64,000 nucleotides of DNA from the human T2T-CHM13v2.0 reference genome, Homo sapiens: NCBI RefSeq assembly GCF_009914755.1, contig NC_060944.1. One strand, written 5' to 3'. This document shows, piece by piece, positions 1,600 to 6,639 of this stretch (positions are counted from its first letter, which is position 1; each line of letters begins with the position of its first letter). The position numbers and the translations under genes were made by a program. The notes under the pieces were generated by a model that was not told the origin of the DNA, ran no database searches, and saw only the letters and a program-made list of their open reading frames with translations.

Positions 1600-2163
1600 G
1601 AACAGAAGTACCACTCAACCCAGCAATCCCATTACTGAGAATATACCCAGAGGAATATAAATCATTCTACCATAAAGACACATGCATGTATGTGTTCATC
1701 ACAGCACTACACAATAGCAAAGTCAGGGAATCAACCTAAATGCTCATCAAGAGCAGACTGGATAAAGAATATGTGGCACATATACGTCATGGAATACTAC
1801 ACAGCCATAAAAATGAATGAGATCATGATCTTTGCAGAGGCATGGATGGAGCTGGAGGTCATAATCCTAAGTCAACTAACATAGGAACAGGAAATCAAGC
1901 ACGGCATGTTCTCACTTGTGAGATGGAGCTAAACACTGAGTACACATGAACACAAAGAAGAGAACAACAGACATCTGGATCTACTTGAGGGTGGAGGGTG
2001 AGAGGAGGGAGAAGATCAAAAACTACCTATCAGGTACTATGCTTATCACCTTGGTGATTAAATGATCCGTACACCAAACCCCCATGACCCGCAATTTACC
2101 TATATAAAAAACCTACCTGCACATGCACCTCTGAACCTAAAATAAAAGTGTTTTTTAAAAAAA
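1600..2163 (+). mobile_element. Older LINE-1 3' end (L1PB/old L1PA), probably the continuation of 1-285
   Basis: CCCAGCAATCCCATTACTG...GGAATACTACACAGCCATAAAAA...CTGCACATGCACCTCTGAACCTAAAATAAAAG 3' UTR. Confidence 0.85.
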
Positions 2164-2171
2164 TGAATCTG

Positions 2172-2278
2172 GTGCTCCCCTCCGCAGCACATATACTAAA
2201 ATTGGAACGTTACAGAGAAGATTAGCATGGCCCCTGCGCAAGGATGACATGCAAATTCGTGAAGCGTTCCATATTTTT
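2172..2278 (+). pseudogene. Full-length U6 snRNA retrocopy (5' part of a chimera)
   Basis: 107 nt matching U6 from GTGCTC to CCATATTTTT with about 5 substitutions against the recalled consensus; ACAGAGA box intact; upstream is an L1 tail rather than PSE/TATA. Confidence 0.97.
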
Positions 2279-2792
2279 GACACCACCTGCAGCCTCTGTA
2301 AACTTTAAAGGGCCTGCAGAGAATGCCATGCTTCTGGAAGATGATTGGTGGTCTTGTCTTCAGATGAAAAGTATTTGTGTTGTGATAAGGGTGTTGGGGT
2401 AAGGGACTCTGTGTGCTGTGCTTTTCTCTAGCCAAGTGGTACTATAATGAGTCTAGGAGGAGAAACATCAGCATTAACAGGAGACTTGCTATAAGAAGCT
2501 AATTCATGGACTCTTTTCAAACCTGCAAAATTTTATTACAGTGAGGCCTAGAATATCAAATAATTTATATGCACATTGAAGCTTGAGAGGCAGAGCTTAG
2601 CTAAGTGACTCTCAGCCCAGTCTTCCAATAGGATCACATGGACAATTTGAAGATAAATCATCACCTGTGCCCTCCCCACAAATCCTGTTTATTGTTCTGG
2701 GTGGAAACACTTCTGTTTTTTAAATTAAGCTCCTCGCATATTACAGTGAGGCCAAGGTCAAGCATGAGGACTTCCAGATACTTTAATGAGAG

Positions 2793-3006
2793 GAACTATT
2801 AACATTCAAGGACGTGGCCATAGAATTCTCTGCAGAAGAGTGGAAATACCTGGACCGTGCCCAGAAGAATTGATATAGAGATGTGACGTTGCAGAACTAC
2901 AGAAACCTGGGTGTTACTGTCTGTAACCCAGACCTGGTCACCTGTCTGGAGCAAAGAAAAGAGCCCTACAATGTGAAGATATATGAGACAGTAGCCAAAC
3001 CCCCAG
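2793..3006 (+). pseudogene. Disabled KRAB-A/KRAB-B coding segment, ZNF141/ZNF718/ZNF732/ZNF595-like
   Basis: Manual translation [70 protein letters not shown]; stop at 2871-2873; 9 nt (VSL) missing at the A/B junction; KRAB-B exactly 96 nt (2911-3006). Confidence 0.93.
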
Positions 3007-3660
3007 GTAGGTGACAGTGAATGAAATAGAGGACACAGGCAAGGGGACTAAGGTCAAGGAGGAAGCCAGGCCTTAAAATGTAGTTTGGGAAGCTCTGCTC
3101 CAATGAAAATAATTTCTGAAAAGGCTGCATTTTTTTCTCATATACACCAATGGGGCATCTTCTGTCTCATGCTGTTAAATCTTCTAAGTATCCTCTTTTT
3201 TCTTTAGTGATCTCCCTTCAAGGTTACAGGGAAAACCAATGTCCGCTTTACCATTTGTAAGGGGCTGCATGATCTGACTGTGGTTCCATTGCTTTTGGAG
3301 ACACAGGAATATTTGTATATTGAGGAGCTCTATGTCGAAGTATTTTTTTTCAAATATTCGTTTTGGATGATGTCTAAAATGTGTAAGGTGAGTAGTGGAC
3401 ATATTGGAATTTGGTTCAGAAATCCCGGGAACACTAGGGACAGATGTTGTACCTCTTCTGCTTTGTGATTTTTACTCCTATAGAGGTTACAAATATAATT
3501 CTACAAAAATTCTTACTCGGCAATTTTATCAGAACAATAAACGTTTTTCTAAATATTAAAAAATGTACTGTTATTTCAAAATGTTATTGTTTTAGTATAA
3601 ACTGAGATTTGTGATTTAAACTCTGTAGGTGCAAATTCTCAAATTAAATATAGTATAAAG

Positions 3661-3848
3661 CACAGGTTTCCAATGTTTTGGCTTCCCTGGGCCACATTGG
3701 AAGAAGAATTGTCTTGAGCCACACATAAAATACACTAACACTAATAATAGCTGATAAGCTTAAAACGAAGTTTCATGAATAATTTTTGTGATATACGCCA
3801 CCATAGATAAGCAAAAAAGTCCTTGCATTCAAAGGGTTGGTCACCGGT
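3661..3848 (+). mobile_element. MER30/MER30B-like hAT-Charlie DNA transposon
   Basis: TTTTGGCTTCCCTGGGCCACATTGGAAGAAGAATTGTC...CACATAAAATACACTAACACTAA...GCATTCAAAGGGTTGG. Confidence 0.8.
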
Positions 3849-4163
3849 TTAAAGTATCTACTCACCTTCTAGATTTCTTAAGTGCAGTATGTCATTAACC
3901 AGCTTAGAACATTGCTAAGTGTATATTATGCTCTCAATCATTACCGTATTTCTTAATAACTATTATCTTATAATTTTGTCTTATTTAGTAGGAAGCCTAA
4001 CTGAGATTCTGTCATCGAGATATATCTATCTATATCTGTATAAAAATGGCTGTCACACACACACCTATATGTTATATATGTGTATAGTAAATTCTTAACA
4101 TTGTTGATAGATTCTTGGAAACTGTAAGTGAAGCAATATATAATTAAAGAAAACTAATTTTAG

Positions 4164-4550
4164 GGCTGGGCACGGTGGCTTACGCCTGTAATCCCAGCAC
4201 TTTGGGAGGCCAAGGTGGGCGGATCAGGAGGTCAGGAGTTCAAGACCAGCCTGGCCAACATGGCAAAGTCCTGTCTCTACTAAAAATACAAAAAATTAGC
4301 CGGGCATGGTGGTGGGCACCTGTAATCCAGCTACTCGGGAGGCTGATGCAGAAGAATCACTTGAACCCCGATACTGACATAGTAGTTAAAGTGTTTGCAG
4401 AAAAGAATGCAGGGAATAGTTTAATTACAACTTCAGCAGGGGGGTAGAGGTTGTAGTGAGCCGAGATCGCACCATTGCACTCCAGTCTGGGTGACGAGTG
4501 AAACTCTGCCTCAAAAAAAAAAAAAAAAAAAAAAAAAAAGAAAGAAAAAA
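4164..4550 (+). mobile_element. AluS with ~70-nt non-Alu insert in the right arm
   Basis: Both Alu arms and long poly(A); degenerate TSD AAAGAAAACTAATTTTA / AAAGTAAACTAGTTTTA; foreign segment 4371-4438. Confidence 0.92.
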
Positions 4551-6639
4551 GTAAACTAGTTTTACCAGCGTTTAATTGATACAAACAAGAGTTACGTTTA
4601 GTGTATAGCAATATTGTTTCATTTAAAGTTGCAGTTTTCAAGAACCTCTTTTGAACATTAGGTGAGGACTTACTGGACATCTGTGTTTGTGTGATATGAT
4701 TTTTCTGATAAATAAAAGTTGCATAACTATACAAAAAAAAGTAAATCTGGTTCATGTGTCCACTGAGTCTCCTGGCTCCAGGCCAGAGGTGAAGGACATT
4801 GTGGGAACTGTAGCCTTGGAACCCCACAACAGAAGCCCCACACTACACTGTAACACCCATCTCCTGCTCCTGTCTGTCTTCCATGTGAGGTTAAAACACA
4901 ACTGGGGGGCCTGTTAGTGGGGGCAACTAAAAGACACCCCACTAGAACCAGGGAATAAGACTTCCATTGAAGGGCTCAGGAGGAAGACATATCAGGACAA
5001 TGCAGGGCACTTGCGATGGAAATGAATAAAAACCATCACGTTTTTGCCAAAATGGTTATGTAGATGCAAAGTTACAGTTGGGCTGGTGACCCAGAACAAG
5101 CACAGCTGCAGGATGTCTCAGGAATCCTCTAAGCTTCCCATCACAGAAACCGTGAAATCTCTGAAGCCGTCCAGGGAGTGAAAAATAAGCTGGCACATAG
5201 GGTCACGAGCACCCAGCATCAAAGACAGGAATTGTGTTCAGAACAGCAGCAGACGCACTGCCCCCTTCTTCCCACAGATCCAAACATGAGAGAGGAGATG
5301 TAAAGAATTTTATCTGACATATCCCTTTCCTGTGATTATTCACAAATTTTGCCACATTTGCATGCTGTGTGCAGCACTCTTAAAGTATTTTCATCTTTGT
5401 TTATTCATTTCTTTAAACCTTTTTAAATGCACCACCAGCAGGTCTTCCAGTTCTAAAAAATAAAATAAAGTCAGTGAAGTAGATGCCAGTGGCAGGCAAG
5501 AGCAGAAAGGCCAGAGAGGCCAGCTTTTCTCTCATCATATTCGTGGTAGAAGAAGTTCCTGTCAATCAACATTGTGATAGCATCAGTCTTAAGCATTGCC
5601 TCAGACACCAGAGGCTCCACACAGAGATATCCAGGTGTTGCAGGACCTGTGCAGGCTGAAAAACCTTCAGAGCTCATAAGCAGAAAGTCGTCTACCCTTC
5701 TAGTTATTCTAGATGGGCCCCCATCTCAGGGGGAGCCCCAGCAGCAGAAAGCCTTATTAAAATTAAAATTAGCTAAGAAGGAAACAAAAGATAAACTTTT
5801 CCTCCTTCTTCCTCTTTAAAGCAGAATGAGTTATCCACTGGATTCGGAATGGTACAGCTCCCAAGGAACTGTGTGACAGGAAGGTCTGCCTGTGGCCGGC
5901 TGAGGGAGGAGGAAGAAAGCAATGAGAAAAGCTAGATCGAGACCACAGATGCTGCAGCTGAGGCTCATCCAGTCAAGTCTCAGACCTAGCAAGAGCAACT
6001 TCCCACAGTAACATTTTTAATCCCTGGCAGCACTTCACATTGAGCTAGTAACTCTTCCTTTAAGAGATTATATAGGTTTTGATAAAGATGTGAGGAATGT
6101 GAGCTGGAGGGCTTTGGACACCTGGAATAAAAGCTGCAGGCAAGATGGGAAACTCTACAACTTGTAATCTGAAAATAGTCCTAGTGATGTGTTCCTACAT
6201 GTACATGTGCATATATGGAGAGTGCCTTTTCTCCACTCTGTATCTTGCATAAACAAGAACTGATTGAGTTGGAGAGTACTTTTCAATTACAATCCATTCC
6301 ATTTAAGAATTCTGAGCTGTCGGGCCTTCTTTTCTTTTAATGGAGCAAAGATAAGTCATATCCTTTCACAGGAAGATGAAGAAAAAAGTGTGAAGATAAC
6401 ATCAAAGCATAATAAAATGTCCAAAGCACTGATACATCTACACATTCAATCTTGCAGACTTTGATTATTAGGAAAAATGATCAAGGTAACAGAGAAACGA
6501 AGAAACTTACTAAGTGTTTCTCATAGGTACAGATTCCTTCTTATCTAGCTGTATTACCAGACACAATGCAATTTGCTTTTATTTACTGATCTCTCTTTTA
6601 AGCATCACACGTTAAAACTGCAAGAGGTAAAGATGAAAT

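What the first reader, a model, noticed from the sequence alone, without database searches (positions are those of the whole stretch)
2157..4750. U6 snRNA / KRAB-ZNF chimeric retrogene inserted as a single unit
Seen: a complete U6 (2172-2278, ending in five T) is joined with no poly(A) or gap to non-U6 sequence containing KRAB exons. That sequence ends in AATAAA (4711-4716) and an A-run (4733-4740). The block is bracketed by a degenerate TSD (AAAAAAATGAATCTG at 2157-2171 versus AAAAAAAAGTAAATCTG at 4733-4749) at a TT/AAAA L1-endonuclease-type site in the tail of an older L1. Established: U6 chimeras arise in L1 retrotransposition by template switching or RtcB ligation of the cyclic-phosphate U6 3' end, and most have an L1 partner. 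Inference: this is a rarer U6-cellular-mRNA chimera whose partner is a KRAB-ZNF transcript; an annotation listing only a U6 pseudogene would miss it.
Basis: partly seen in the sequence, partly recalled or inferred. Interest (0 to 1): 0.8.

Follow-up and report, generated by a model that had tools for sequence, protein, structure and literature searches.

The report
U6 fused to KRAB-ZNF retrocopy
A dead copy of the U6 spliceosomal RNA is welded directly to a reverse-transcribed, partly spliced transcript of a chromosome 4 KRAB zinc-finger gene and was pasted into chromosome 20 in one step by the LINE-1 machinery; this is a known kind of genomic fossil, well preserved here but only half annotated.

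Summary
Window 2172-2278 is a full-length U6 copy (Rfam 113.6 bits) that ends in five T. From base 2279 it continues without a gap into sequence colinear with the KRAB-ZNF cluster at the tip of chr4.

That partner is RNA-derived:
- Two introns of the chr4 loci (277 and 495 nt) are missing.
- Homology stops at 4731, 15 nt after a conserved AATAAA, and eight A follow.

A 13-of-15 target-site duplication brackets the whole unit at a TTTTTT/AAAAAAA site; 32 of 200,000 random position pairs match as well.

A tree places the copy (100/99) with the paralogues at chr4 ~287 kb and ~465 kb, probably ZNF732 and ZNF721 by gene order. The order among the three is unresolved.

The source RNA was atypical. 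It carried intron-1 sequence, used an alternative donor, and was polyadenylated inside the intron after KRAB-B.

U6 divergence (5 of 107) agrees with the partner's own-branch divergence (~6%), so the two parts are about the same age.

U6/mRNA chimeras are already described (passages of PMC6789731 and PMC4476161). This is therefore a new, or at least unannotated, member of a known kind. A 67-bp mitochondrial fragment sits inside the copy.

The parts
2151..2156 (.). T-run immediately 5' of the duplicated target. TTTTTT/AAAAAAA on the top strand equals the L1 endonuclease consensus TTTT/AA on the bottom strand.
   Evidence: Read. The consensus itself is recalled and is also named in passages of PMC6789731.
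2157..2171 (+). 5' copy of the target-site duplication (AAAAAAATGAATCTG). It begins in the A-tail of the older upstream repeat.
   Evidence: 13 of 15 identity with 4735-4749. 32 of 200,000 random pairs reach this. The upstream repeat ends at about 2149-2156.
2172..2278 (+). Full-length U6 snRNA copy ending in T5 (RNU6-27P). It carries 5 substitutions, three of them in the 5' stem-loop.
   Evidence: Rfam RF00026, 113.6 bits, model positions 1-105 of 105. 5 of 107 differences from the commonest top-scoring genomic U6.
2279..2792 (+). 5'-truncated first block of the KZNF transcript. It is intron-1 sequence of the source gene and ends at an alternative donor 277 nt upstream of the KRAB-A exon.
   Evidence: 91-92% identity to chr4 ~287 kb. 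GTGAGT is present at this place in 6 of 8 genomic paralogues, and the chr4 ~287 kb copy has CTGAGT. The canonical exon 1, read from the chr11 retrocopy, lies upstream of this block in the chr4 ~465 kb locus.
2793..2910 (+). KRAB-A exon, 118 nt (127 nt in the source minus a 9-nt deletion between CCTG repeats). It contains an in-frame TGA at 2871-2873.
2911..3006 (+). KRAB-B exon, 96 nt, joined to KRAB-A with the 495-nt GT..AG intron removed.
3007..4731 (+). Intron downstream of KRAB-B. It is read through from its intact GTAGGT donor to an intronic poly(A) site.
   Evidence: Colinear with chr4 ~287 kb at 87-89%. Homology ends at 4731.
4165..4548 (+). Alu element inherited from the source transcript and interrupted by the mitochondrial insert. 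It is present at the same place in 4 chr4 paralogues and absent in 3 genomic paralogues and 2 retrocopies.
   Evidence: The 4548 end is set from where the Alu-free paralogues resume (4549).
4371..4437 (+). Mitochondrial DNA-derived insert: the end of the control region plus the first ~27 nt of mt-tRNA-Pro. It is absent from both closest chr4 paralogues and is not part of the original chimera under the favoured reading.
   Evidence: 11 other genomic matches at 79-88%. Two of the matching loci carry a cytochrome b frame and mt-tRNAs. The insertion caused no loss of Alu bases.
4711..4716 (+). AATAAA polyadenylation signal, conserved in the genomic paralogues.
4733..4740 (+). Remnant poly(A) tail (A8). 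Its last six A overlap the 3' repeat as counted.
   Evidence: the source locus reads TTTAAT at this place.
4735..4749 (+). 3' copy of the target-site duplication (AAAAAAGTAAATCTG).

Best explanation
Window 2157-4749 is one LINE-1-mediated insertion made from a two-part RNA template. The first part is a complete U6 snRNA. The second is the 3' 2.45 kb of a polyadenylated, partly processed transcript of a KRAB zinc-finger gene of the 4p16.3 cluster. That gene was the ancestor of, or one of, the paralogues now at chr4 ~287 kb and ~465 kb.

Shown:
- U6 is full length and abuts the partner directly.
- The partner lacks two introns and ends at a poly(A) site with an A-tail.
- One duplicated target flanks the whole unit at a T-run/A-run site.
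- U6 and the partner are about equally diverged.

Inferred:
- L1 endonuclease nicked the bottom strand at TTTTTTT/AAAAAA, in the tail of an older repeat.
- ORF2p primed on the partner's poly(A) in trans and copied through into U6.
- The two RNAs were joined in one of two ways: by ligation of the U6 2',3'-cyclic phosphate end to a 5'-OH break in the KZNF RNA before reverse transcription (RtcB-type), or by a template switch of the reverse transcriptase onto the U6 3' end.

I slightly favour ligation, about 55:45. This structure cannot decide between the two.

The product is inert. The KRAB frame has a stop and a 9-nt deletion, there is no zinc-finger exon, and the U6 copy sits behind a repeat tail instead of its own upstream promoter region.
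For: -: U6 covers model positions 1-105 of 105, 113.6 bits.
- window 2279-2792, 2793-2910 and 2911-4731 are colinear with chr4 ~287 kb on the minus strand, with 277 nt and 495 nt missing between the blocks. The second intron is GT..AG. The first ends in CAG.
- GTGAGT is present at the first intron's donor in 6 of 8 paralogues.
- homology starts at 2279. Upstream of that point 6 of the 8 paralogues shown share a conserved non-U6 sequence (GTTTTTCA...GACATT or GACGTT). The chr4 ~465 kb and chr7 copies differ there.
- no Rfam match of any kind in the 9 related loci scanned.
- homology ends at 4731, 15 nt after AATAAA. The signal is kept in 7 of the 9 genomic paralogues aligned. The chr2 and chr11 retrocopies end within a few nt of the same site.
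- the target-site duplication agrees at 13 of 15; 32 of 200,000 random pairs do as well.
- the window copy groups 100/99 with chr4 ~287 kb and ~465 kb. Its end branch is 0.061; theirs are 0.049 and 0.050.
- on 843 columns shared by the three, the unique changes are 51, 40 and 39.
- U6 differs at 5 of 107 (4.7%). This is compatible with the same age as the partner's ~6%.
- Papers (passages only): PMC6789731 states that mature U6 typically ends in five U, that full-length U6 copies joined to cDNAs of other cellular mRNAs exist in the reference genome, that RtcB ligates U6 to a non-L1 RNA in nuclear extract, and that RNase L is among the candidate 5'-OH-generating nucleases. PMC4476161 section 6 describes U/pseudogene chimeras.
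Against: - No orthologous empty site could be examined, so simultaneous arrival of the two parts rests on structure and similar divergence only.
- The target-site duplication is A-rich and imperfect. Its non-A 8-mer match (7 of 8) alone arises in 1.3% of random pairs.
- The poly(A) remnant is only 8 nt.
- The present chr4 ~287 kb locus has CTGAGT, not GTGAGT, at the first donor. The splice is inferred for the ancestor from the other paralogues.
- The U6 divergence rests on only 107 nt.
- On the joining step: the two T before the break in the source (GACATT|GACACC) can be read as 2-nt microhomology, which favours template switching. They can equally be read as a UU^N endonuclease cut, which favours ligation. 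By chance this TT would occur about 1 time in 16.
Confidence: 0.9

Rival explanations
1. There were two separate retrotranspositions. Either a KZNF processed pseudogene inserted first and a U6 pseudogene later landed exactly at its 5' edge, or the order was the reverse.
For: Both kinds of pseudogene are common. The same KZNF isoform gave U6-less retrocopies on chr2 and chr11. Doucet et al. (PMC4476161 section 6) describe one U6atac/Alu pair as a possible two-event structure.
Against: There is no A-run, gap or filler between the U6 T5 and the first source-homologous base. There is no room for a second pair of target-site duplications: the bases after U6 are source sequence, and the bases before 2279 are U6. 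The only flanking repeat brackets the whole unit. The two parts have similar divergence.
Confidence: 0.04
2. A DNA-level (segmental) duplication carried a chr4 gene fragment that already had U6 next to it.
For: The 4p16.3 cluster and its relatives are spread by segmental duplication to chr18 and to other chromosome ends.
Against: Two introns are missing in the window copy. Homology stops at a poly(A) site followed by A8. No U6 was found in the 9 related loci scanned. The flanks are a repeat tail and single-copy chr20 DNA.
Confidence: 0.01
3. The insertion is a tripartite chimera. The 67-nt mitochondrial piece inside the Alu (4371-4437) was also picked up during the same reverse transcription, by a jump onto a mitochondrial L-strand transcript and back.
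For: The piece is absent from both closest paralogues, and it is inserted without loss of Alu bases. It lies in the sense of tRNA-Pro, that is of the L-strand transcript, and so in the same sense as the retrocopy. Double template jumps are reported for LINE reverse transcription (title and abstract of PMC2104539).
Against: Returning to the same RNA at the very next nucleotide is unlikely. Short mitochondrial inserts are ordinarily explained as filler at repaired double-strand breaks (recalled). The sense orientation has a 1-in-2 chance. Mitochondrial RNA is in another compartment.
Confidence: 0.04

Closest known systems
U6/cellular-mRNA ('U/pseudogene') chimeric retrocopies. These are attributed to Buzdin et al. 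2003, which is not held here. I saw them only as cited in passages of PMC6789731 and in section 6 of PMC4476161.
   Same: A full-length U6 ending in oligo-T is joined in the same orientation to a 5'-truncated cDNA of another cellular RNA. The unit has a poly(A) end, a target-site duplication and an L1 endonuclease-type target.
   Different: The partner here is a partly processed transcript with intron-1 sequence, an alternative donor and intronic polyadenylation, not a mature mRNA. I could not check whether this locus is in the published lists. Buzdin 2003 and Garcia-Perez 2007 are not held, and Doucet's Table S1 is a PDF that cannot be read here.
U6/L1 chimeric pseudogenes (PMC6789731 passages; PMC4476161 section 6; PMC11838501 abstract)
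   Same: The same architecture and the same two candidate joining mechanisms: RtcB ligation of the U6 cyclic-phosphate end, or template switching during target-primed reverse transcription.
   Different: The 3' partner is not L1, so the L1 proteins must have acted in trans. Moldovan et al. expect such events to be rarer.
Plain processed pseudogenes of the same KRAB-only isoform, at chr11 ~35.51 Mb and chr2 ~83.22 Mb
   Same: KRAB-A and KRAB-B are spliced together, the transcript reads into the downstream intron, and the same poly(A) site is used. The chr11 copy has an 18-bp target-site duplication.
   Different: These copies have no U6. The chr11 5' end was read directly. About 890 bp upstream of the chr2 copy was scanned. 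They derive from other paralogues: chr18 ~14.28 Mb and chr4 ~337 kb, each with 100/100 support. The chr11 copy starts with the canonical exon 1 instead of intron-1 sequence.

Membership tests
U6/mRNA chimeric retrocopy made by L1 | Full-length U6 ending in its oligo-T tract at the 5' end of the insertion | tested here: met
   Rfam model positions 1-105 of 105, ends in T5
U6/mRNA chimeric retrocopy made by L1 | Direct junction, in the same orientation, to a 5'-truncated copy of another cellular RNA | tested here: met
   Source homology starts at 2279. The paralogues continue upstream with other sequence.
U6/mRNA chimeric retrocopy made by L1 | The partner is RNA-derived: introns removed, ends at a poly(A) site with an A-tail | tested here: met
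   Introns of 277 nt and 495 nt are absent. The copy ends 15 nt after AATAAA and is followed by A8.
U6/mRNA chimeric retrocopy made by L1 | One target-site duplication around the whole unit | tested here: met
   13 of 15 identity. 32 of 200,000 random pairs reach it.
U6/mRNA chimeric retrocopy made by L1 | Insertion at an L1 endonuclease consensus site | tested here: met
   TTTTTT/AAAAAAA read. The consensus is recalled and is named in PMC6789731 passages.
U6/mRNA chimeric retrocopy made by L1 | Both parts arrive together in evolution (shared presence or absence across species) | not testable with these tools
   No primate genomes are held. The only available evidence is similar divergence: 4.7% for U6 against ~6% for the partner.
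Functional KRAB zinc-finger gene or expressed retrogene | Open frame with KRAB and a C2H2 zinc-finger array | tested here: not met
   KRAB is present. However, there is a TGA at 2871-2873 and a 9-nt deletion, and the copy ends in the intron before the zinc-finger exon.
Functional U6 snRNA gene | Canonical sequence and its own upstream gene-external promoter region | tested here: not met
   5 of 107 positions changed, three of them in the 5' stem-loop. The 500 bp upstream is the end of an interspersed repeat. That U6 promoters lie upstream of the gene is recalled.

The most novel reading that the evidence does not exclude
The insertion is a three-part chimera. Besides U6 and the KZNF transcript, the 67-nt piece of mitochondrial L-strand sequence at 4371-4437 was captured during the same reverse transcription. 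That would record an L1 reverse transcriptase jumping onto a mitochondrial RNA and back.

A milder and likelier novelty (about 0.4) is that the partner was a nuclear, incompletely processed KZNF pre-mRNA. This would place the U6 joining step in the nucleus. Together with the chr2 and chr11 copies, it would also show that a KRAB-only, intron-terminated isoform of this gene family was germline-expressed repeatedly.
Probability: 0.04. Interest if true: 0.55.

Novelty: new member of a known kind. Interest (0 to 1): 0.25.

Why it matters
The value is modest.

- It is a clean, fully dissected example of a U6/cellular-RNA chimera: exact junction, source paralogue clade, splice pattern, poly(A) site and target site.
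- The RefSeq table supplied lists only RNU6-27P here, so about 2.45 kb of KZNF-derived sequence goes unexplained.
- The copy is a fossil of a transcript from about the time the ~287 kb and ~465 kb paralogues of the 4p16.3 cluster split. It preserves an alternative donor that the ~287 kb locus has since lost.
- Together with two U6-less retrocopies from other paralogues, it shows that a KRAB-only isoform ending at a conserved intronic AATAAA was available to L1 in the germ line more than once.
- It does not bear on the open question of ligation versus template switching.

Tried and rejected
- Buzdin 2003 (PMC169886) and Garcia-Perez 2007 are not held. I therefore could not check whether this locus is already listed.
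- Of the Doucet 2015 supplements, the one readable file is a matrix of species-by-species p-values. It has no hits for chr20, pseudogene, mRNA or ZNF. Their Table S1 is in a PDF that cannot be read here.
- A full-text search for RNU6-27P found 1 paper, on structural variants. I saw the listing only and did not read it.
- A search for 'chimeric retrogene' + 'U6 snRNA' + 'zinc finger' counted 3 papers, versions counted apart. The one paper listed is PMC11838501, which treats L1 partners; in it 'ZNF' occurs 0 times and KRAB appears only in the discussion and references.
- Pfam on four open frames of the upstream repeat gave no family. Its L1 identity therefore rests on copy number, NCBI's mask and recognition.
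- I first read the gap in the chr11 retrocopy (window ~3005-3639) as a third removed intron. I rejected this because neither edge lies at GT or AG, so it is a deletion.
- I considered naming chr4 ~287 kb as the single parent. The AU test does not order the three lineages (p 0.07 either way).
- I considered the 2-nt TT at the junction as a decider between mechanisms. It fits both.
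Full report
**1. Observation**

Window 2172-2278 is a complete U6 snRNA copy on the + strand. Rfam RF00026 matches model positions 1-105 of 105 with 113.6 bits against a gathering score of 44.

I fetched the 12 best-scoring U6 loci of the same genome. The commonest sequence among them is printed identically for three loci, and three more equal-scoring loci are printed on the other strand. 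The window copy differs from that sequence at 5 of 107 positions: G7C, T9C, G12C, A39T and C79T. It ends in five T.

The other listed elements are also in place:
- AATAAA is at 4711-4716 and A8 at 4733-4740.
- The direct repeats AAAAAAATGAATCTG (2157-2171) and AAAAAAGTAAATCTG (4735-4749) agree at 13 of 15 positions without a gap.
- In a control, 32 of 200,000 random position pairs of the window at the same spacing, with 13 offsets allowed, reached 13 of 15. The non-A 8-mer alone (7 of 8, 21 offsets) was reached by 2,602 of 200,000.
- Six T precede the 5' repeat.

**2. What the non-U6 part is**

A search of the window's own genome with 2279-4140 found, besides itself, colinear matches on the first 470 kb of chr4, on chr18 near 14.28 Mb and at many other KRAB-ZNF loci. 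The best match is chr4 ~287 kb on the minus strand.

blastn against that locus gives the following:

| Window | Locus L002 | Identity |
|---|---|---|
| 2277-2792 | 4125-3609 | 91% |
| 2791-2909 | 3331-3213 | 90% |
| 2910-4367 | 2708-1270 | 87% |
| 4439-4731 | 1268-1001 | 74% |

Two genomic stretches of 277 nt and 495 nt are therefore absent from the window copy.

- The 495-nt stretch is bounded by GTGAGG...AACAG. It separates a 127-nt KRAB-A exon from a 96-nt KRAB-B exon.
- The 277-nt stretch ends in TTTTCAG. In the present chr4 ~287 kb locus it begins CTGAGT.
- GTGAGT is present at that place in 6 of the 8 genomic paralogues shown, and follows GAG directly in 4 of them. The ancestral donor was therefore GAG|GTGAGT, and the ~287 kb locus has since lost it.

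Read with X at its single TGA, window 2793-3005 matches Pfam KRAB (E 1.4e-19). The copy also lacks 9 nt between two CCTG repeats at the end of KRAB-A.

After KRAB-B the donor GTAGGT is retained. The copy runs on through the downstream intron for 1.7 kb. There is no zinc-finger exon.

**3. The ends of the partner**

*5' end.* Homology begins at 2279. The source reads ...GACATT|GACACC..., and the window reads ...CATATTTTT|GACACC.... Upstream of the break, 6 of the 8 paralogues shown share a conserved non-U6 sequence (GTTTTTCA...GACATT or GACGTT). The chr4 ~465 kb and chr7 copies differ there. An Rfam scan of 9 related loci found no RNA family at all.

*3' end.* Homology ends at 4731. The window continues C-A8, whereas the source reads TTTAAT. 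The AATAAA 15 nt upstream is conserved in 7 of the 9 genomic paralogues aligned. The chr4 ~387 kb copy has ACATAAA, and the chr4 ~59 kb row stops short in the alignment.

These were homology running on past the A-run, or upstream through the U6.

**4. Which transcript it was**

The chr11 retrocopy found in passing begins, right after an 18-bp target-site duplication, with about 136 nt that end ...GAGAAATG and are spliced to KRAB-A. In the chr4 ~465 kb locus this canonical exon 1 lies about 565 bp upstream of the place where that locus's match to window block 2279-2792 begins.

Block 2279-2792 is therefore intron-1 sequence relative to the canonical mRNA. It was spliced to KRAB-A from an alternative donor.

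The template was an atypical, partly processed RNA with four features:
- intron-1 sequence retained;
- two short introns removed;
- read-through past KRAB-B;
- cleavage at an intronic poly(A) site.

The Alu at 4165-4548 was already in that RNA. It sits at the same place in the chr4 loci at ~212, ~287, ~387 and ~465 kb. It is absent at ~59 kb, ~337 kb, chr18 and in the chr2 and chr11 retrocopies.

**5. Source and age**

I built an ML tree (GTR+F+G4) from 2,060 columns and 12 of 13 rows. The chr4 ~126 kb row was left out because it had only 542 filled positions.

- The window copy groups with chr4 ~287 kb and chr4 ~465 kb (100/99).
- Those two pair with each other at 91/88.
- The AU test does not reject either alternative pairing (p 0.07 for each). 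It does reject placement with chr4 ~337 kb (p 1.5e-5).
- On 843 columns shared by the three, the unique changes are 51 (window), 40 and 39, and 4 columns differ in all three.

The copy was therefore made at about the time these two paralogues split.

The names rest on gene order. Table 3 of PMC4804413 lists ZNF595, ZNF718, ZNF876P, ZNF732, ZNF141, ABCA11P, ZNF721 (passages). The chr4 hits lie at ~59, 126, 212, 287, 337, 387 and 465 kb. This makes ~287 kb ZNF732 and ~465 kb ZNF721. That is an inference from order and from my recollection of strands, not an annotation I could read.

The own-branch divergence is ~6% (0.061 by ML). U6 differs at 4.7% from a conserved master sequence. The two figures agree with each other. 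With recalled primate substitution rates they suggest an insertion some tens of millions of years old. This was not tested on other species.

**6. Flanks**

Window 1650-2156 is the end of a high-copy repeat. There were 12,475 first-look candidates. The 40 scored copies besides the window's own are 80-83% identical, and 39 of them end at query 493-507 of 507. NCBI masks this stretch, and I recognise it as an L1 3' end. Pfam gave nothing for 4 of 4 of its frames.

Window 4741-5240 is single copy in the genome. The insertion therefore went into the T-run/A-run at the very end of an older repeat.

**7. Mechanism**

The anatomy has five components: full-length U6 with T5, a direct junction, a 5'-truncated RNA-derived partner with an A-tail, one target-site duplication and an L1-type target. 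This is the anatomy described for U6 chimeras.

What the papers say (passages only):
- PMC6789731 states that about 100 to 200 U6 pseudogenes are fused to a 5'-truncated L1 or to a cDNA of a cellular RNA.
- It states that full-length U6 joined to cDNAs of other cellular mRNAs exists in the reference genome.
- It states that mature U6 typically ends in five U with a 2',3'-cyclic phosphate, and that RtcB can ligate U6 to L1 RNA.
- It states that U6 also became joined to a non-L1 (GFP) RNA in HeLa nuclear extracts, and that such non-L1 chimeras would need L1 proteins in trans.
- PMC4476161 section 6 gives the template-switching account and uses the term U/pseudogene chimeras.

Here the two T preceding the break in the source can be read in two ways. 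They could be 2-nt microhomology, which favours template switching. They could be the UU of a UN^N endonuclease cut that leaves a 5'-OH. The paper lists RNase L as a candidate nuclease; its cleavage specificity is recalled. I put ligation at about 55:45 over switching and regard the question as undecidable from one locus.

**8. Rivals**

- Two independent insertions: disfavoured. There is no A-run, no filler and no room for a second duplication between the parts.
- DNA duplication: excluded by the missing introns.
- Tripartite chimera: see section 9.

**9. Seen in passing**

*Mitochondrial insert.* Inside the inherited Alu, window 4371-4437 has no counterpart in either close paralogue. It is inserted without loss of Alu bases. 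It matches 11 other genomic places at 79-88%. One fetched match holds a cytochrome b frame and mt-tRNA-Glu. Another holds mt-tRNA-Phe, Pro and Thr, with the matching stretch covering the bases before tRNA-Pro and its first ~27 nt. It is therefore a 67-bp mitochondrial fragment. It most likely arrived later as filler at a repaired break. Capture during the same reverse transcription is not excluded, but I rate it at about 0.04.

*Other retrocopies.* Retrocopies on chr2 (~83.22 Mb, sister to chr4 ~337 kb, 100/100) and chr11 (~35.51 Mb, sister to chr18 ~14.28 Mb, 100/100) end at the same poly(A) site. An older spliced KRAB-A/B copy lies at chr8 ~127.71 Mb (73% identity). The KRAB-only, intron-terminated isoform was therefore retrotransposed at least three times from three paralogues.

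**10. Verdict**

The class is already described, so this is a new or unannotated member of a known kind.

Open points:
- the empty site in other primates;
- whether the locus is in the published catalogues that I could not read;
- how the two RNAs were joined.

Noticed in passing
window 4371-4437: A 67-bp mitochondrial DNA-derived insert (end of the control region plus the first ~27 nt of mt-tRNA-Pro, in tRNA-Pro sense) lies inside the Alu of the retrocopy. It is absent from both closest chr4 paralogues and was inserted without loss of Alu bases.
   Followed up: yes
L031 (chr11:35510500-35515500), about 1945-2985: A U6-less processed pseudogene of the same KRAB-only isoform, derived from the chr18 ~14.28 Mb paralogue. 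It has the canonical exon 1 spliced to KRAB-A, an 18-bp target-site duplication and the same poly(A) site. It also has a ~635-bp internal deletion that is not at splice sites.
   Followed up: partly
L030 (chr2:83215000-83222000), minus strand, about 2309-4447: Another U6-less retrocopy of the same isoform, derived from the chr4 ~337 kb paralogue. It is 5'-truncated 8 nt into KRAB-A, carries later Alu insertions and ends at the same poly(A) site followed by an A-run.
   Followed up: partly
L039 (chr8:127706500-127712500), 2997-3588 minus strand: An older, 73%-identical copy with KRAB-A and KRAB-B contiguous and read-through into the downstream intron. It is probably a further retrocopy from a more distant KZNF gene.
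   Followed up: no
L023 (chr4:285500-291500), just below 4283 on the minus strand: The alternative donor used by the retrotransposed RNA reads CTGAGT in the present chr4 ~287 kb locus. GTGAGT is present at this place in 6 of 8 paralogues, so this looks like a lineage-specific loss of the donor.
   Followed up: partly
window 2178-2183: Three of the five U6 substitutions (G7C, T9C, G12C) cluster within six bases of the 5' stem-loop. No explanation was sought.
   Followed up: no
window 1-2156: This stretch holds several stacked repeat 3' ends on the + strand with an Alu-like insert near 290-600. The frames at 718-1269 and 1639-1881 share 23 of 37 residues.
   Followed up: partly
L029 (chr4:463000-468500): The chr4 ~465 kb paralogue lacks the stretch from KRAB-B to about window position 4030. 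This means it has lost the KRAB-B exon.
   Followed up: no
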